Positions 40,513-55,206 of a stretch of DNA of 64,000 nucleotides are shown one piece after another. The stretch covers positions 32,001 through 96,000 of the IMG/VR virus record IMGVR_UViG_3300005613_000009. One strand, 5' to 3'. This DNA is from a virus. A program made the translations under genes and the position numbers. Position 1 is the first letter of the stretch. Every line of letters starts with the position of its first letter. Below the pieces are notes generated by a model. It had not been told where the DNA came from. It searched no databases and saw only the letters and a list, made by a program, of their open reading frames with translations.

Positions 40513-40908
40513 CCTCCTTCTTCGATATAAGTGTGATAGAACTGTTTTTCTTATTAGGAGATTTTAATAGAAAATTCACAAAAAAACAAATAAAAAAAAA
40601 GAAAGATTGACAGGTTAATAGGTCTTATTATTTGGTCTTTTTTGTTTTTTCGAAATTTTTTTTGTGGGATAGTTGTTAAAACATTTTTCGGTTCTGGATT
40701 TTCTGTTTTTTTAGGTTTTTTCATAAAATACGCTTTTTTATTTTGCTAAAATTTAGGGGCCAGCATAATATCTACCCCAGGTAGTTTTTTTCCAAGGATA
40801 GTATTAATACTACATCGTACGTCACGACTTTAGCTTAGCAAAAAAAACAACTATGATATAGCTTACAAAAATGAAATCTAAAAAACAATATACAATCACG
40901 AATATTCC

Positions 40909-40985
40909 AGACACGTATGCGGGGTTGTCCTGGCAAAAAATCGCGTTGGTACAAGACACGTATGCGGGGTTATCCTGGCAAAAAA
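40909..40985. repeat. Two 32-bp direct repeats, period 45
   Basis: AGACACGTATGCGGGGTT(G/A)TCCTGGCAAAAAA at 40909 and 40954. Confidence 0.85.
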
Positions 40986-41025: not shown

Positions 41026-42450
41026 TTAAGTTGAAAGGATTTTCTCTTTAGTCTCGAAGAAAGTTTGCTTTAAGATTCTTCGGGTCGTCGGGGAGGGATT
41101 GAAGCCGTTTAATCTCTTTTTCCCCTTGTCTAAAGCTATACAGTAGGATATAGCTTTGTTCAAGTCCTTTATGTTTTTCTGTGCTTTTAATCTTTTTGTT
41201 AGTTCGCCAAGTCGGTTACTTTTCAAAACTCTCTCAAGTTTATCGTTTTTCACCCGGCTATACTCTTTAAAAAATAACGCTTTTTCGTAGTTAGGCAGGG
41301 CAAAAACTTTCTTTGTCAAGCTATGAAGTTCATCATAGCTTGAATCTCTAAGCTGTTTTATTACACTAAAATATTTTTCTGAAAATTCCGGTAGTTCTAC
41401 TTTTGAACTATCCCCTATTGGAACATATGAATATCCCGTTTTTGTCGATTCAACCTCTTTCTCTATTTCGATAAATATTCTCTCAAGGTCTTGATCGGAG
41501 GCGGTTTCTATTTCACCTTGCCTCTCTCTTATTAATTGTTCTTCTTTGCTTTGTTCCGTTACTTCTTTCAAGTTCAAATCTATCATTGATAGTTCAAGTA
41601 ACATCGAGGCGGCTTTTTCACTGTCTTTTCTAATTTCTTCTATACATTGTTCCCTCATTTTTGCAGTAAAATTGAGTGACAAAAAATACTCTGTCAATTT
41701 CTCTGCTGTGTAGATGTCAATGCCGCACTTTTTCATAATATATTCCGGTTTAGTTGTTAAGGTTCTCCCGTCATTCTCCACAATCCTTGGGTCTAACAAT
41801 CTGTTACCGTTGTAGTAACAGTGTTCTGAGATGTTTCTCTCAAGCTGTGTCATATTTGAGGTATGCCGGGCCATGCCATCGAAGCCCTCTCCAAAATGAT
41901 TATCGTTGAATAAATCCCTATCGTCATTAAATTTGACGTCAATCATGTCGTCGCTATCGACGACACATGCCACATGATACCTATTTATGTCATTTCTAAT
42001 TCTTCTATCCAGCATTGATTTTCTGATGAACACTTCACCAGAAAAGATCAAGTGAAAAATTGCTTTGGCGATTACCTCTCCATGGCAGGGTTTCGGGGCA
42101 CAAAAACATTCAAGATATAGTCTGCCATGTCTCAACAATAGACTGGCAAGTCTTTTCAGTTCGTTTCTGATGTCATTATCCAGGTTCTGCACATATCCCC
42201 CAGACCTTGGAGAATATGAGTCTTTAGTCCAGCCTAAAAAGCTGGCGGCCAGCCACATACGATACAATCGAATGCTTTCAGCCCTACTGTATGAACTCAA
42301 GGGATATGGGTTGCCCAGTATACTGGGCCGCCCGACAAATACGTAATTGTCCTTACCTTCTTGTGGCTTGTACTTCTTGCTCCAGTTTTTGTTTACAATT
42401 TTGATCTTGAAATTTTCTTGATACTCTTTCTTTGTCAATTTTCGATCCAT
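41026..42450 (-). CDS. DUF4326-domain protein with a long helical C-terminus
   Basis: YVFVGRPSILGNPY...SIRLYRMWL...LECFCAPKPCHGEVIA. Confidence 0.8.
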   Translation of the reverse strand: MDRKLTKKEYQENFKIKIVNKNWSKKYKPQEGKDNYVFVGRPSILGNPYPLSSYSRAESIRLYRMWLAASFLGWTKDSYSPRSGGYVQNLDNDIRNELKRLASLLLRHGRLYLECFCAPKPCHGEVIAKAIFHLIFSGEVFIRKSMLDRRIRNDINRYHVACVVDSDDMIDVKFNDDRDLFNDNHFGEGFDGMARHTSNMTQLERNISEHCYYNGNRLLDPRIVENDGRTLTTKPEYIMKKCGIDIYTAEKLTEYFLSLNFTAKMREQCIEEIRKDSEKAASMLLELSMIDLNLKEVTEQSKEEQLIRERQGEIETASDQDLERIFIEIEKEVESTKTGYSYVPIGDSSKVELPEFSEKYFSVIKQLRDSSYDELHSLTKKVFALPNYEKALFFKEYSRVKNDKLERVLKSNRLGELTKRLKAQKNIKDLNKAISYCIALDKGKKRLNGFNPSPTTRRILKQTFFETKEKILST

Positions 42451-42467
42451 GATAATCCCCCATTCTC

Positions 42468-42527
42468 AATTAGACTCAATTCAGCTTAATTAGACTCAAT
42501 TCAGCTTAATTAGACTCAATTAAGCTT
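42468..42527. repeat. Three tandem 20-bp repeats
   Basis: AATTAGACTCAATT(C/A)AGCTT x3, just upstream of the DUF4326 gene. Confidence 0.9.
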
Positions 42528-43495
42528 ACTTTTAATAATATAGATCAATCCTTCCCCATCTGGATCAATCTTTTGGCTTTTTGTCGTGTTTTCTCCAGTC
42601 TTTTAGGCGTGTTAAGATTCCGAATGTCTCTGACCGGGTTTCTTTGCATTGCGCTCAGTCTTGAAAAATGTCGATCTTTTCAAGCGTCTGCCAGGGGGGC
42701 ACTGTCGATCTTTAACGGGTCTTGAAGACTCTCAAAAACTGTGGTCGTCCTACCTCAAAGAACTACTTCGATTTATCCCATCTGGCCTCATGCCGTCAAG
42801 GTCCCAGGCTTGCATCATGTCAGCCTGGGCGCTTCGTGCCATACTCACTATGATATGTTGCATATTTGGTGCCACAATAATCAAGCCCATTTGGTATCAA
42901 TCCAGCACAATTAAGCGTATTTACATGAAAGAGGTGGTGTGTATTTTTTGCAAGGGTGTGGCTTTTTCGATACGCTGTTTTATTGTGCAATATCAATCGC
43001 TTACGGTGCTGTGGCGATAAAGCCACAATGTGGGATAGTCAGTTTTCAGCTGTCTTTTTTTTGACTTTTTTTTAACTGGAAATTCCTTCGCTGCGCCCTT
43101 TGCAGCGCCCTCGCCTTGCAAAGCGGGCGAAATGGCAACGCCTGAAATTGATCTTAGTATTTCATTCTCCCCTGGCGTAAATAACAAGGCTGAGGGTAAA
43201 ACGAAACAAACGGACTGAAATAATGACAGAGGGGATAGGCAGACACGAGCTAAGACAAGGCAGTCGAAAATGAGAAAAAAATCGTCGTCTGTCTTTGAAA
43301 ACAGAGATTGTTCCGGCTCTGCGCTAGCGTAACGCAGAGCCTAAATAAGAAAACCCCGCTAAGCGTTTGTCTGCCTAACAGGGTCTGGGGGATTACTTTT
43401 TTATTAAAAAAAAGCGCAAGAACTCCAGCAGCTCTACTCTGCGTCATAACCCCAGTTAGAGTTCCAGGGTTATCAAGGAGTTCCTGCGCGAAAGA

Positions 43496-43684
43496 TTATG
43501 CCTCGCCAGCCAACACATCCGCTACTTCACAGATTATGTCGGCCACTCTCCCGTTGCAGGGGAAATCCTTCCCAGCTATCTGCAACGGGAATTTCTTTTG
43601 GTCCCAAGTCTGAGGACCGAATTCAACCGGCCCTCCAGTTTCCAAGAGAAGCTCTATCGCTTCCCTAAACTTTTCTTTATTCAT
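43496..43684 (-). CDS. Hypothetical protein (cassette ORF)
   Basis: GAGGGGG RBS behind the conserved module. Confidence 0.65.
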   Translation of the reverse strand: MNKEKFREAIELLLETGGPVEFGPQTWDQKKFPLQIAGKDFPCNGRVADIICEVADVLAGEA

Positions 43685-44255
43685 CTCAATTCCCCCTCGT
43701 GTTAAGAGTTAATGTTTTATTTTCACAAAAAAACAAATAAAGAAAACAAAAAGCCCGGTTCACGCTGCCAAGTTTTCCCTGGCAAAAAAAAAGACCACCT
43801 GCCATAAGGTTCTAAACAGGCAGATGGTCTTAAAATTTCCGGGCTCTGTACCCCTCTAATCGGGAGACGCTGTCCACACACCCGGCGATGTGGGAGCCAT
43901 GCTCGAACCGGTTACCCTACATCCGGAAGGTATTCCATTCCCATACAGGTTATTCGAGCTTTCCCTGTATAGTCCCGTGGAAGGATGTACTGGCAGGTCC
44001 ACGGATTTTCGATGGGTGATTTCTCGGTAACGGGGCCGCCATCGACCGGATATCCTCCCGTCTTGCTACCAGTTGCGATTTTTCACGCAACTCCCGACTT
44101 TTCTTTCGACGCCGGGCATCCCCGATTAATCGCTGGGTTGCGCATGAACAGGTACTGCGGGGCCTTTCCCTGTTCCCCTTGATCTCCAGCTGCCACTGGA
44201 GAGATCTTTGAGAGACGATCTTTTCATCGCCCCTCAAATCTTATATACTATTTAT

Positions 44256-44318
44256 TTCACAAAAAAACAAATAAAAAAATAAAAAAAGCCCGGTGAACGT
44301 GTGCCGGGTTCACCGGGC
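44256..44318 (-). terminator. Representative conserved intergenic module: terminator GCCCGGTGAAC-loop-GTTCACCGGGC-T7 followed by ATTTG-N7-GTGAA
   Basis: Related modules at ~43722-43790, 44536-44595, 44809-44872 and 45454-45513. Confidence 0.8.
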
Positions 44319-44326
44319 CTAGTTAA

Positions 44327-44500
44327 CTAAAATGGAATTTTATCTTCGAACATTGATGTTTCGACAACTGCATTGTCAAGAAACTGAACAATGCAATTAT
44401 CTAAATTCAATCCGACAAGCTCCAGTTCTTCAAGCTCGTCGGCATAGAATATATCCGCATTTCCTATTGAGTCGATGACTATAATCTGTTTATCAACCAT
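44327..44500 (-). CDS. 57-aa acidic microprotein ending -EDKIPF
   Basis: Absent from the track. GAGGGGG RBS; MVDKQIIVIDSIGNADIFYADELEELELVGLNLDNCIVQFLDNAVVETSMFEDKIPF; paralog of 45219-45419. Confidence 0.8.
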   Translation of the reverse strand: MVDKQIIVIDSIGNADIFYADELEELELVGLNLDNCIVQFLDNAVVETSMFEDKIPF

Positions 44501-44882
44501 TTCATCCCCCTCATGTTGAAAGTTAATGTTTTGATTTCGCTAATAAACAAATAAAGAAAAAAAAGCCCGGTGAACGTGTGCCGTATTCACCGGGCCTGGG
44601 GGGAAGATTGATAGATAAAACTCATAAGATACATTTTCCTGATTCGATATGCAGGAAGAGAAATTCTTGCAAATGGCCAATGAAAATCATGACTTTTCAT
44701 TTTCTCGGCCTTTTCCCTCGAAAAACGCATCTTGTGGGCTTTACCCCTCCGGATGCAATTCCATCACCCCCTCTCTTAGTTTAAGGTTATTAAATTATTT
44801 TGTTTAATTTCACTAAAAAACAAATAAAAAAATAAAAGCCTGGTTTACGCTGCCGGGTTTCCCCTGGCGAAAATGCAACCTA

Positions 44883-45185
44883 TTATCGTTTCATATCTTC
44901 ACAAGTGAAGACATAAGTTTCAAACAAAGCCCTGTCGTTGAGGGTTTCAAGCCACTGCCTTATTTGTGGCAGTCTTGGCTTTATAAATTTGATACGATCT
45001 TCTTGCCTAAGATAAAATTCCTCGTCAGCATAACGGATTAAGGCAACAAGTTCTTCTGCGGCATGAGAAAGGGTAGGAGCTCCCTCATTCTCACTTGTTA
45101 GACCATGATAATAGAGACCAATCGTGTCTAACAAAAACCCTTTTTCAAGTATTTCAATCAATAAGTTTATCACCAGTTTTCTCAT
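44883..45185 (-). CDS. Hypothetical protein (cassette ORF)
   Basis: AAGGGGGTG RBS. Confidence 0.7.
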   Translation of the reverse strand: MRKLVINLLIEILEKGFLLDTIGLYYHGLTSENEGAPTLSHAAEELVALIRYADEEFYLRQEDRIKFIKPRLPQIRQWLETLNDRALFETYVFTCEDMKR

Positions 45186-45218
45186 GTTTCACCCCCTTAT
45201 ATATTAAACGTAACCGGC

Positions 45219-45419
45219 TTAGAACGGAATGATATCTTGATGAAACGGGCTATTGGATCCTATTTCATACTCAGAAGAAATACGTTGGAACTCTTCTTCG
45301 TCATAGACATCTATGACGTCATCGTTAAACATGTCGAAAAGTTCCAGATCCTTCAACTCTTCCTCGTAAAAGACATCAGCGCTCCCAACCGAATCCACGA
45401 TCATCAACCTATCTTCCAT
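45219..45419 (-). CDS. 66-aa acidic microprotein ending -QDIIPF
   Basis: 20 D/E versus 3 K/R; paralog of 44327-44500. Confidence 0.8.
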   Translation of the reverse strand: MEDRLMIVDSVGSADVFYEEELKDLELFDMFNDDVIDVYDEEEFQRISSEYEIGSNSPFHQDIIPF

Positions 45420-45546
45420 GATACCCCCCTGGTTTAAATGTTAATATTTTAAATTCACTTTAGAACAAATTAAAAACAAAAAAAAACCCGGTGAGCATGT
45501 CTGCTACCGGGTTAATTCAGTGATCATGATAAAACACCTTTTCTTC

Positions 45547-45768
45547 TTACTTTTTGGCATTGGCCTTCGCAAGCCTTAGCTTAACGGCGTCCGGTGTAGG
45601 AAGTTGTTCCTTGATCAAGGTCCTCAACTCCATGTCCGTCTCTTGGAGGACGTTTTTGAACTCTTCACCTTCCTCAAGCTGGCCAGTGACGCCATAACTA
45701 ACGGACCATGAATTGAAATTCTGGCCCAATTTTTTCGAAACCAATACTGAAATTGTGTCTGTTTTCAT
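45547..45768 (-). CDS. Hypothetical protein
   Basis: GGAGGT RBS. Confidence 0.7.
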   Translation of the reverse strand: MKTDTISVLVSKKLGQNFNSWSVSYGVTGQLEEGEEFKNVLQETDMELRTLIKEQLPTPDAVKLRLAKANAKK

Positions 45769-45917
45769 CTAAATACCTCCAAAAATCATGAGAAAAACGG
45801 CAATCGCCGCCGATGTTAATATTATAAAATCCTGGCATTCCATAAAAAACTTTTCCATAGCAATACCTCCATTAAAAAAAAGGCAAGCACCAAACCGGCA
45901 CTTGCCTTAATTCCCGG

Positions 45918-46355
45918 CTAAAAAGGGATGTCGTCGTCCGCGATTTCGGGAACTGGTGGTAACTCATTCTCCTGCGGCTTATTCCCGCCATTGCCGTTCC
46001 CGTTCACGCTGGTGTTTCCGTTTTTGGGCGTCAGGAACTTGATCGAATCGGCCTCAATGTTTGTAGAATAACGATCGTTTCCGTTGTTATCCTTCCAAAC
46101 CTGATTCCGCATGCGCCCCTGCAGGCTGATCATGTCGCCTTTGCCGCAGAATTTCCCGACGATTTCGCCCAGCTTCCTCCAAGCGACTCCGTTTACCCAC
46201 GTGGTGATTTCCTTCGGGCTGCCGTCGTCATTGAACCCAAACCTTTCGTTGACGGCAATCCTGAAATTTGCCACGCTGTCCCCGGTTTTTGTAAACCTTA
46301 CTACCGGGTCCCCACCAAGCCTACCTATAAATGTACAACTGTTCTCGCAACTCAT
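45918..46355 (-). CDS. ssb: Single-stranded DNA-binding protein
   Basis: OB fold (GRLGGDP..RFT..G..VANFRIAVNE...TTWVN.VAW...QGRMRNQVWKD) and acidic DDDIPF tail. Confidence 0.96.
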   Translation of the reverse strand: MSCENSCTFIGRLGGDPVVRFTKTGDSVANFRIAVNERFGFNDDGSPKEITTWVNGVAWRKLGEIVGKFCGKGDMISLQGRMRNQVWKDNNGNDRYSTNIEADSIKFLTPKNGNTSVNGNGNGGNKPQENELPPVPEIADDDIPF

Positions 46356-46439
46356 GGTGAATCCTCCTGTTTTAAGATTATTAAGATTAACTATTTGTAA
46401 TTCAACCTAAAACAAATAAAAAAAGAGAAAAAAATACTT

Positions 46440-54600: not shown

Positions 54601-55173
54601 CTAAATATCGGCAAAATCCGGATCGTTTTCGACCGAATCCCTTTCAGGAGTGTTAAGCCCATTATCTGCACCCTGTGTGTCGGAAGTATCATCTGGGAAA
54701 AAGCTATCGCCCAACAGTTCCTTGACCTTCAAAAACTCAGTATTTGTCATTGCACGTTCCCAGTCCTCCCATTCAGCCTGTGTCATCTGAATTTTTTCAA
54801 GTTGATCATCTGTAAGTTTTTTTACTTTTCTTTTTGCGGTTGTCGCATCCGGTGTTGGTTTCAGGACCGGTGTTGATTCCGAGATTTGTTCTTTGTCCAT
54901 TTCTACTAAGAGTTTTACGGCCTCAACTCTCAGAGATTCCTGTTTGTCCAGAATTACGCCCATCTTTGAAGCAAGAGGCGTTTTCATTTTTAACTGCTTC
55001 GGCTGTTGATTTGTTATTCCTTGTTCGATGCACTGGATCATAAAAGCATTAGCACTCATTTTCGACAGCTTTGCATATTTTGCAATACTTTCAAAGAGAG
55101 ATTGCGACATTCGAACGGTTGTCCTTTTGTTCAAACTTTCATTCTCATTTTCCTCGTTTTTTGTATCAGTCAT
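54601..55173 (-). CDS. Ribbon-helix-helix DNA-binding protein with acidic tail
   Basis: Start ATG 55173 (AAGGAG RBS); KRTTVRMSQSLFESIAKYAKLSKMSANAFMIQCIEQGI. Confidence 0.7.
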   Translation of the reverse strand: MTDTKNEENENESLNKRTTVRMSQSLFESIAKYAKLSKMSANAFMIQCIEQGITNQQPKQLKMKTPLASKMGVILDKQESLRVEAVKLLVEMDKEQISESTPVLKPTPDATTAKRKVKKLTDDQLEKIQMTQAEWEDWERAMTNTEFLKVKELLGDSFFPDDTSDTQGADNGLNTPERDSVENDPDFADI

Positions 55174-55206
55174 AGGTTTTTTCTCCTTTTCTTTCGAGTT
55201 TAACAA

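What the first reader, a model, noticed from the sequence alone, without database searches (positions are those of the whole stretch)
44327..46355. Two acidic microprotein paralogs ending in an SSB-like IPF tail, near ssb
Seen: 45219-45419 (66 aa, 20 D/E versus 3 K/R, ends QDIIPF) and unannotated 44327-44500 (57 aa, 13 D/E versus 2 K/R, ends EDKIPF) share an N-terminal I.DS.G.AD.FY..EL..LEL motif. The phage SSB 0.5 kb away ends DDDIPF. Known: the C-terminal IPF of bacterial SSB is the docking peptide for ExoI, RecQ, RecJ, PriA, Pol III chi and others, and strongly acidic small phage proteins (Ocr, Ugi) act as DNA mimics. Inference: decoys that titrate host SSB-interacting repair/replication enzymes or defence sensors that detect phage SSB. 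I do not recognise this family.
Basis: partly seen in the sequence, partly recalled or inferred. Interest (0 to 1): 0.72.

Follow-up and report, generated by a model that had tools for sequence, protein, structure and literature searches.

The report
Small acidic phage proteins with SSB-like tails

Summary
Two minus-strand genes (45219-45419, 66 aa; 44327-44500, 57 aa) encode paralogous, very acidic proteins (pI about 4) that end in IPF. They lie 0.5 and 1.4 kb downstream of a canonical ssb that ends DDDIPF. In the whole 120-kb phage record, only these three of 1,044 ORFs end this way.

They are real genes. Each has a promoter-like motif shared with ssb and a strong RBS, B57 has its own strong terminator, and the paralogs show a protein-coding substitution pattern.

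The family is an orphan, with no Pfam, PHROG, NCBIfam or PDB match. A profile did recover orthologs in a related uncultured phage lineage (SSB 56% identical), at the same position downstream of ssb. All seven known sequences end F-x(2-3)-D-x-I-P-F. In the sister clade all 15 variable sites lie in the body and the last 15 residues are invariant (P about 0.01).

The tip is only partly SSB-like: there is no DDD run, and position -4 is I, K or P.

My best reading (about 45%) is that these are co-expressed, non-DNA-binding competitors for pockets that read SSB tips. Adaptor, OB-fold-binder and unrelated roles remain open.

I found no publication on stand-alone SSB-tip microproteins.

The parts
45219..45419 (-). 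A66: 66-aa acidic microprotein (net charge -17, pI 4.05) ending ...SPFHQDIIPF
   Evidence: ORF. The GGGGGG ribosome-binding site 5 nt before the ATG is seen. Paralog of B57 and homolog of the L022 protein. AF2 gives a beta-beta-alpha-beta-alpha core with the tail from about residue 53/55 at pLDDT below 50.
44327..44500 (-). B57: 57-aa acidic microprotein (net charge -11, pI 4.05) ending ...SMFEDKIPF
   Evidence: ORF. GAGGGGGA ribosome-binding site. Aligns to the L022 protein over its full length, E=3e-8. A sister-strain variant (P0002) differs by three conservative changes and has the last 7 residues unchanged.
45918..46355 (-). Phage ssb: canonical OB-fold SSB ending DDDIPF
   Evidence: Pfam PF00436 E=1.4e-24 and phrog_44 E=6e-43. 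79 homologs found, the closest at 51-89% identity, all ending D-[IL]-P-F.
46399..46417 (-). Promoter-like motif ATTTGTT-N-G(T)TGAAT upstream of ssb
   Evidence: The simple scan also finds a sigma-70-like TTGAAT-17-AATAAT at 46405-46377.
45452..45470 (-). The same promoter-like motif upstream of A66
   Evidence: In the whole 120-kb genome the motif occurs only between window 40573 and 46417.
44534..44552 (-). The same promoter-like motif upstream of B57
44286..44320 (-). Intrinsic terminator after B57 (13-bp stem followed by a T run)
   Evidence: Fold energy -22.9 kcal/mol, z=-5.3. The stem starts 6 nt after the stop codon, so it does not overlap the IPF codons.
44883..45185 (-). p100: 100-aa orphan protein. 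Its RBS and ATG follow the A66 stop by 33 nt, so it lies in the same cassette and is probably co-transcribed.
   Evidence: No family or Atlas match. The hairpin after it is weak, -12.9 kcal/mol, z=-0.4.
45547..45768 (-). p73: 73-aa protein between ssb and A66. Its homolog keeps the same place in the related phage contigs.
   Evidence: Homologs at L022:825-1016 and in L023 and L024. Terminator at 45485-45513, -22.1 kcal/mol.
45880..45908 (-). Intrinsic terminator after ssb
   Evidence: 13-pair stem followed by a T run.

Best explanation
A66 and B57 belong to a small, previously undescribed family of phage proteins. Each has a compact acidic N-terminal domain of about 50 residues, followed by a short flexible tail. 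The functional element of the tail is the invariant C-terminal F-x(2-3)-D-x-I-P-F-COOH.

They carry the same promoter-like motif as the phage ssb, so they are probably made at the same time as SSB. They have no OB fold, so they should not bind ssDNA the way SSB does.

The most likely mechanism is competitive docking. The Ile-Pro-Phe-carboxylate tip inserts into the kind of hydrophobic pocket with a basic rim that reads SSB tips. That would reduce or redirect what SSB recruits. It could be a defence sensor that contacts phage SSB. It could also be one of the phage's own helicase, nuclease or Sak4-like proteins. The non-acidic residue at -4 and the folded domain would give selectivity for one target rather than for the whole SSB interactome. 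The two diverged paralogs would then address two targets or target variants.

Shown: the genes are real, the tip is conserved, synteny with ssb is conserved, and the regulatory motif is shared.
Inferred: docking of the tip into an SSB-tip pocket, competition with SSB, and the identity of any partner.
For: The genes are real.
- Each has its own RBS and promoter-like motif, and B57 has its own strong terminator; the A66-p100 cassette ends in only a weak hairpin.
- Identity over the paralogs' aligned 36 codons is 0.56, 0.81 and 0.31 at codon positions 1, 2 and 3. Nine of the 14 conserved residues use different codons.

The tip is unique.
- Only the SSB and these two ORFs, of 1,044, end in [ILVM]PF.
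- There is no comparable ORF in 150 unrelated ssb loci.

The tip is conserved.
- The ortholog in L022 (SSB 56% identical) matches at E=1e-7 and 3e-8 over the full length and ends ...FDLDPIPF.
- Four variants of it and a B57 variant all keep the tip.
- The family invariants include F59, D62, I64, P65 and F66.
- In the sister clade, 15 variable sites all fall in residues 1-51 and the last 15 residues are invariant. P=0.012, or 0.032 for the last 12 defined beforehand from AF2.

The tail is probably disordered: pLDDT is below 50 from residue 53/55 in two AF2 runs.

Linkage to ssb is conserved. The gene order ssb, p73 homolog..., microprotein recurs in L022 and L023. The ATTTGTT..GTGAAAT motif is shared with ssb and is confined to this region.

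There is precedent that tips of this type are read.
- HK620 Sak4 needs the last six residues of its cognate SSB (PMC5928155). This phage has a Sak4-like AAA_24 protein.
- The acidic tail of T7 gp4 docks on basic patches of the polymerase gp5 (PMC12593628).
- A phage SSB-like protein with an FDDDIPF tip is required for efficient activation of DRT10, a defence system that ExoI restrains (10.64898/2026.04.29.721553).
Against: - No binding data or complex model exists. A multimer prediction could not be run with these tools.
- The tip lacks the D-D-D tract. Position -4 is I, K or P, against D/E in 89% of SSB tails. The pre-IPF scores (-3.9, 3.0 and 0.3) lie below the 10th percentile of real SSB tails, which is 4.4.
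- A general competitor would also interfere with the phage's own SSB, which carries the same promoter-like motif.
- The family is tiny, only three lineages, so the conservation statistics are modest.
- The structure models are of low confidence, pLDDT about 59.
- The host is unknown, so the host SSB tip and its readers are unknown.
Confidence: 0.45

Rival explanations
1. Adaptor rather than competitor. The N-terminal domain binds a phage protein, for example p100 from the same cassette, the MCM-type primase-helicase or a nuclease. The tail tethers that cargo to whatever reads SSB tips. This would hand the cargo a 'ticket' to replication forks or repair sites, in the way T7 places similar acidic aromatic tails on both gp2.5 and gp4.
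For: - A66 is followed within 33 nt by p100 in the same cassette.
- The N-terminal domain has its own invariant residues D9, Y18, E21, L22, L25 and E26, which suggests a second binding surface.
- The T7 gp4 tail docks on gp5 (PMC12593628).
- The gene keeps its place near ssb in diverged phages, as a replisome accessory would.
Against: - B57 stands alone in its cassette, with no partner gene.
- No p100 homolog starts in the 155 bp that remain after the L022 microprotein.
- The family is absent from other phages with related SSBs at 29-43% identity, which is unlike a core replisome part.
Confidence: 0.25
2. SSB modulator. The acidic protein and its aromatic tip bind the ssDNA groove of an SSB OB fold, as SSB-Ct and the T7 gp2.5 tail do within their own proteins. 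This would lower the ssDNA affinity of host SSB, or tune that of phage SSB.
For: - Strong net negative charge, -17 and -11.
- The same promoter-like motif as ssb, which suggests co-expression.
- Weak binding of the acidic SSB tail to SSB's own DNA-binding site is discussed in PMC5928155.
Against: - The conservation is concentrated on the precise I-P-F-COOH tip, not on overall charge.
- It is hard to see selectivity between the host SSB and the phage's own, similar SSB.
- There is no direct evidence.
Confidence: 0.1
3. The IPF ending is unrelated to the SSB network. The proteins would be acidic inhibitors or DNA mimics of another target, in the style of p56, Ugi, Ocr or gp5.9. Alternatively the hydrophobic end serves oligomerisation or another pocket, and the resemblance to SSB is a convergent short motif.
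For: - Only I-P-F and D(-5) match SSB, and the acidic tract does not.
- Very low pI.
- The weak Foldseek rows include the 56-aa acidic UDG inhibitor p56, but at E of 1.8 or more and TM about 0.3, which is not significant.
Against: - Among 14,297 ORFs near ssb genes, xPF endings on non-SSB proteins are rare (6, none of them acidic), apart from this family.
- The family is held next to an ssb with the same ending in two lineages.
- An aromatic residue at -7/-8 and D at -5 also match common SSB tail positions.
- A beta-clamp-binding motif is excluded, because the Q of QDIIPF is not conserved.
Confidence: 0.17
4. The ORFs are not real genes: chance open frames in intergenic cassette DNA.
For: They are short, unannotated or orphan ORFs, and the first two database searches found no homolog.
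Against: - Strong RBS and promoter-like motifs, with a strong terminator after B57.
- A codon-position conservation pattern typical of coding sequence.
- Full-length protein-level orthologs in other samples.
Confidence: 0.02

Closest known systems
C-terminal tip of bacterial and phage SSB (SSB-Ct, ...D-D-D-I-P-F), the hub peptide read by ExoI, RecQ, RecJ, PriA, Pol III chi, RecO, RecG, DnaG and others
   Same: An extreme C-terminal I-P-F with a free carboxylate, D at -5, an aromatic residue at -7/-8, an acidic context, and a position at the end of a probably disordered segment.
   Different: There is no OB fold and no tetramer core. The D-D-D tract is replaced: position -4 is I, K or P. The 'linker' is only about 10-15 residues long. 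Binding is untested.
Non-canonical phage ssDNA-binding proteins that carry the same tip: DUF669 prophage proteins with DDDIPF (PMC13687109) and the two-OB-fold Bas52_0087 with FDDDIPF, the DRT10 trigger (10.64898/2026.04.29.721553)
   Same: They show that phages graft the SSB tip onto scaffolds other than canonical SSB, and that such tips matter in phage-defence interplay involving ExoI.
   Different: Those proteins still bind ssDNA through OB folds. A66 and B57 are 57-66 aa proteins with no detectable DNA-binding domain.
Phage T7 replisome tails: the acidic C-terminal tails of gp2.5 (SSB) and gp4 (helicase-primase) dock on basic patches of the polymerase gp5 (PMC12593628, PMC10359462; the C-terminal Phe is from my own knowledge)
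   Same: One phage puts similar acidic, aromatic-ended tails on more than one protein, so that they share or compete for one docking site.
   Different: In T7 the second carrier is a large enzyme with a known role. Here the carriers are microproteins of unknown activity.
HK620 SSB and Sak4 (PMC5928155)
   Same: A phage annealase reads the last six residues of its cognate SSB. This phage also encodes a Sak4-like AAA_24 protein, which is a candidate reader.
   Different: The HK620 tip is NDYPPF. No interaction has been tested here. An unannotated 194-aa protein ending DDFSDI sits next to the Sak4-like gene and might be its real partner.
Small acidic phage inhibitors and DNA mimics (phi29 p56, Ugi, Ocr, T7 gp5.9; PMC9836394)
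   Same: Size, very low pI and accessory or early-gene context.
   Different: There is no sequence or significant fold similarity. The conserved element here is a terminal peptide motif, not a charge surface.
Unrelated small phage or mobile-element proteins with SSB-like tips noted earlier by this scan, for example a 70-aa family of T1-like coliphages
   Same: The same architecture: a small domain plus an acidic tail ending in an SSB-type tip, in early or replication regions.
   Different: There is no sequence relation. Those are unchecked AI notes. The present family is confined to one uncultured phage lineage and occurs here as two paralogs.

Membership tests
SSB-Ct short linear motif | Phe as the very last residue (free carboxylate), preceded by Pro at -2 and an aliphatic residue at -3 | tested here: met
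   I-P-F followed by a stop codon in A66, B57, L022 and P0082-P0085. P(-2) and F(-1) are present in 100%, and I/V/L(-3) in 95%, of 131 distinct SSB tails.
SSB-Ct short linear motif | An acidic tract (usually D-D-D) at positions -4 to -6 | tested here: not met
   D(-5) is invariant. Position -4 is I, K or P, and -6 is Q, E or L. The pre-IPF PSSM scores are -3.9, 3.0 and 0.3, against an SSB median of 11.8 and a 10th percentile of 4.4.
SSB-Ct short linear motif | Presented on an intrinsically disordered segment | tested here: inconclusive
   AF2 pLDDT is below 50 for residues 53-66 and 55-66 in two runs, but the whole models are of low confidence, 59.7 and 58.8.
SSB-Ct short linear motif | Binds the tip pocket of SSB-interacting proteins | not testable with these tools
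   No multimer prediction or binding assay is available.
SSB family (OB fold, PF00436) | An OB-fold ssDNA-binding domain | tested here: not met
   There is no Pfam, PHROG or NCBIfam hit. At 57-66 aa the proteins are too short for an OB fold. The predicted core is beta-beta-alpha-beta-alpha.
DNA-mimic or acidic inhibitor proteins (Ocr, ArdA, Ugi, p56, gp5.9) | Sequence or fold homology to a known mimic | tested here: not met
   No family hits. Foldseek against the PDB finds nothing at E below 1, and the p56 rows have E of 1.8 or more and TM about 0.3. The PDB sequence search finds nothing meaningful.
DNA-mimic or acidic inhibitor proteins (Ocr, ArdA, Ugi, p56, gp5.9) | A strongly acidic surface | tested here: met
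   pI 4.05, net charge -17 and -11. This is composition only; a charge pattern cannot be judged from the low-confidence model.
Beta-clamp-binding motif (QL[SD]LF / QLxLxL) | A conserved Gln followed by the hydrophobic pattern | tested here: not met
   QDIIPF occurs only in A66. B57 has EDKIPF and the L022 type has LDPIPF, so Q is not conserved.

The most novel reading that the evidence does not exclude
Stand-alone 'SSB-tip' microproteins are a general, so far unpublished, phage strategy. A small domain that may oligomerise would present several I-P-F tips without binding ssDNA. It would imitate the multi-tailed SSB hub and so blind or rewire host SSB-interacting nucleases and helicases, or defence systems that sense phage SSB. 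This family, held next to ssb and duplicated within one phage, would be one independent invention of that strategy.
Probability: 0.3. Interest if true: 0.8.

Novelty: new variant of a known kind. Interest (0 to 1): 0.55.

Why it matters
The SSB C-terminal tip is the central docking peptide of bacterial replication, repair and recombination. It is also a proposed antibiotic target. Several newly described defence systems (DRT4, DRT10, DARNA, AbpAB, retron types) are triggered by phage SSBs.

A phage protein that carries only the tip, without DNA binding, would be a natural competitive inhibitor or adaptor for that hub. It would be a compact tool for probing which enzymes read the tip. It would also be a possible counter-measure in the conflict around SSB sensing.

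This case adds three things: conservation of the tip under selection, conserved linkage to ssb, and a within-genome duplication. Its practical weakness is that the phage and its host are uncultured.

Tried and rejected
Searches that found nothing:
- Homolog search with the single 66-aa protein (5.8 billion proteins) and an exhaustive HMMER search with the two-sequence profile (1.84 billion representatives) returned only the proteins themselves. The relatives appeared only after a syntenic ortholog had been found through ssb.
- INPHARED phages by DNA and by protein: no match.
- IMG/VR scans with the microprotein profiles, the single SSB, p100 and the spacer DNA: no match. The IMG/VR scan with the SSB alignment gave only distant ssb loci at 29-40% identity.
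- Pfam, PHROGs, NCBIfam and PDB sequence searches: no family.
- ESM Atlas: no usable hit for A66 or p100.
- Foldseek on the low-confidence model: nothing significant.

The longer ENA and Logan contigs that carry the closest SSBs (P0004, P0006, P0007) could therefore not be inspected.

Readings I considered and rejected:
- A beta-clamp motif, because Q is not conserved.
- A recent DNA copy of the ssb 3' end, because the codons differ and there is no DNA similarity.
- Overlap of the IPF codons with terminator or RBS constraints, because there is none.
- Chance ORFs.

Other checks:
- The 194-aa protein beside the Sak4-like gene could not be shown to be an SSB.
Full report
**1. What is there**

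The window is bases 32001-96000 of a 119,981-bp linear viral record, estimated 81% complete. On the minus strand lie three genes:
- an ssb gene at 45918-46355, 145 aa;
- a 66-aa ORF at 45219-45419, called A66 here;
- a 57-aa ORF at 44327-44500, called B57 here.

The SSB is canonical: Pfam PF00436 at E=1.4e-24 and phrog_44 at E=6e-43. It ends DDDIPF. A66 has 20 D/E against 3 K/R and ends QDIIPF. B57 has 13 D/E against 2 K/R and ends EDKIPF. Both have pI 4.05.

**2. More than chance, and real genes**

- Of 1,044 ORFs of at least 30 aa in the whole record, exactly three end in [ILVM]PF: the SSB, A66 and B57.
- The three tails use different codons for I-P-F. The identity is therefore kept at the protein level and is not a recent DNA copy.
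- Over the 36 aligned N-terminal codons, identity is 0.56, 0.81 and 0.31 at codon positions 1, 2 and 3. Nine of the 14 conserved residues use different codons. This is the signature of purifying selection on a protein.
- Each gene has a strong Shine-Dalgarno sequence.
- B57 is followed by a strong terminator of -22.9 kcal/mol, z=-5.3. ssb and p73 also have good terminators. The hairpin after p100 is weak.
- All three genes are preceded by a shared promoter-like element, ATTTGTT-N(5-6)-G(T/C)GAA(A/T)T. In the whole genome this element occurs only between window 40573 and 46417.

ssb and the two microprotein genes therefore belong to one set of self-contained cassettes. By inference they are expressed together.

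**3. Relatives**

The family matches nothing in Pfam, PHROGs, NCBIfam or the PDB. The first searches returned only the queries:
- the word-based search of 5.8 billion proteins;
- the exhaustive HMMER search of 1.84 billion representatives with the two-sequence profile;
- INPHARED;
- IMG/VR.

Relatives were reached through ssb. An alignment of the closest SSBs, at 51-89% identity, was scanned over metagenome contigs. This gave two useful kinds of locus:
- L021 is the same phage, at 99.5% identity.
- L022, L023 and L024 are three contigs whose SSB is 56% identical.

L022 is syntenic with the window. It carries a homolog of the 170-aa upstream protein, then ssb (ending PSDIPF), then a homolog of p73, then a 64-aa basic ORF. 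Behind the same ATTTGTT..GTGAAA motif and an AGGAG site there is then a 66-aa acidic ORF ending FDLDPIPF. That ORF aligns over its full length with A66 (E=1e-7) and with B57 (E=3e-8), and the alignments run to the terminal IPF. L023 breaks off nine codons into the same gene at the same place.

A three-sequence profile then recovered four variants of this ortholog, at 82-94% identity to one another. It also recovered a sister-strain variant of B57.

**4. Conservation of the tip**

Across all members the invariant columns are D9, Y18, E21, L22, L25 and E26 in the N-terminal domain. At the end they are F59, D62, I64, P65 and F66, which is F-x(2-3)-D-x-I-P-F.

Within the L022-type clade, all 15 variable positions lie in residues 1-51 and the last 15 residues are invariant. 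The chance of that is 0.012. It is 0.032 if the tail is defined beforehand as the 12 residues that AF2 leaves disordered. The B57 variant differs at three conservative positions and keeps its last seven residues.

The sample is small, only three lineages.

**5. How SSB-like is the tail?**

I built a position matrix from 131 distinct SSB C-terminal 9-mers and scored the tails against 15,307 ORF ends.
- Overall, the microprotein tails rank just behind the real SSBs.
- This comes mainly from I-P-F, D(-5) and the aromatic residue at -7/-8.
- Positions -9 to -4 score -3.9, 3.0 and 0.3, against an SSB median of 11.8 and a 10th percentile of 4.4.
- Position -4 is D/E in 89% of SSB tails, including every close relative of this phage's SSB. 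In the microproteins it is I, K or P.

The tail is thus a partial copy. It has the pocket-filling end and one acidic residue, but not the acidic tract.

**6. Structure**

AF2 with the 2- and 6-sequence alignments gives low confidence, with mean pLDDT 59.7 and 58.8. Both runs give the same beta-beta-alpha-beta-alpha core, and a tail with pLDDT below 50 from residue 53 or 55. Foldseek found nothing at E below 1. The weak rows to the acidic UDG inhibitor p56 are not evidence.

**7. Context**

Around the cassettes, within the window, lie:
- an HNH endonuclease;
- a DUF4326 protein;
- a DprA-like protein;
- two pentapeptide-repeat proteins;
- an RNA ligase;
- a thymidylate-synthase-like protein.

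Beyond the window the record encodes:
- an MCM-type primase-helicase;
- a Dda/RecD-like helicase;
- PD-(D/E)XK and ERCC4-type nucleases;
- a Sak4-like AAA_24 protein.

No family-A polymerase or DnaB helicase was found.

In 153 other ssb loci (1.39 Mb), no small acidic xPF-ending ORF exists outside this family. The arrangement is therefore specific to this lineage.

**8. Mechanism**

What is shown is a conserved terminal peptide on a small acidic domain, held near an ssb that bears a similar ending and the same promoter-like motif.

Established knowledge bears on this:
- SSB tips are read through the terminal Phe carboxylate and the Pro by a pocket on many enzymes (reviewed in PMC10143822, PMC10164576 and PMC5872125).
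- A phage annealase, Sak4, needs the last six residues of its SSB (PMC5928155).
- The T7 helicase-primase gp4 carries an acidic tail that docks on the polymerase (PMC12593628). That gp2.5 uses a similar tail ending in Phe is from my own knowledge.
- A phage SSB-like protein with an FDDDIPF tip is needed to activate DRT10, a system that ExoI restrains (10.64898/2026.04.29.721553).

The most economical inference is that the microproteins dock their tip in such a pocket and compete with SSB. Selectivity would come from the non-acidic -4 residue and the folded domain. I put this at about 0.45.

The rivals are:
- an adaptor role, about 0.25;
- binding to an SSB OB fold, about 0.10;
- a role unrelated to SSB, about 0.17.

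A plain 'titrate everything' decoy is less attractive, because it would also compete with the phage's own, probably co-expressed SSB.

**9. Novelty**

Six literature searches found SSB tips on canonical and non-canonical ssDNA-binding proteins (PMC13687109; 10.64898/2026.04.29.721553). They found no description of stand-alone, non-DNA-binding proteins that carry the tip.

This scan has, however, noted at least eight analogous but unrelated small proteins on other phages and mobile elements. All of those are unchecked, and none resembles this family in sequence. I therefore file it as a new variant of a known kind, namely the SSB-tip motif on a new, orphan scaffold.

**10. Limits**

- No multimer prediction was possible.
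- The host is unknown.

Noticed in passing
window 45769-45858 (-): A 29-codon, strongly hydrophobic mini-ORF with its own GGAGG site lies between the ssb terminator and p73. Its stop codon directly abuts the p73 ATG, which suggests translational coupling. It is absent from the corresponding place in L022, L023 and L024.
   Followed up: partly
window 44565-44806 (-): A cassette 'slot' between p100 and B57 has the promoter-like motif, a strong RBS and only a 7-codon ORF. About 190 nt follow, ending in a strong terminator (-22.8 kcal/mol). It may be a small RNA or a leader. A 47-aa ORF (44587-44730) is the only alternative.
   Followed up: partly
window 42465-42531: A run of 10-bp units (CTCAATTAGA / CTCAATTCAG / CTTAATTAGA) repeats with a 20-bp period just upstream of the DUF4326 gene start. 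It may be an operator or an iteron array.
   Followed up: no
window 40894-40983: Two tandem 45-nt direct repeats, 82% identical, lie downstream of the DUF4326 gene.
   Followed up: no
window 54601-55206 (-) and L019:15476-16060 (-): Two otherwise unrelated proteins end in a similar acidic tail, ...DPDFADI and ...DDFSDI. One is an Arc/ParG-like RHH protein. The other is an unannotated 194-aa protein directly beside the Sak4-like gene, where Sak4-cognate SSBs usually sit. This may be a second shared tail motif in this phage.
   Followed up: partly
window 42450-44236: About 1.8 kb has a higher G+C content (0.44 against about 0.35) and no convincing ORF, and Rfam finds nothing. It includes the candidate structured RNA noted earlier by the scan at 43784-44236.
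   Followed up: partly
L019:4660-6702 (-): A 680-aa protein matches phrog_1735 (unknown function) end to end at E=1.5e-250, with no Pfam domain, inside the replication module. No DNA polymerase was identified in the record, so this is a candidate for an unrecognised replication enzyme.
   Followed up: no
L022:1066-1242 (+), also in L023 and L024: A 64-aa basic ORF cassette sits between the p73 homolog and the microprotein in the related phages, and is absent from the window. This shows cassette turnover around a retained microprotein.
   Followed up: partly
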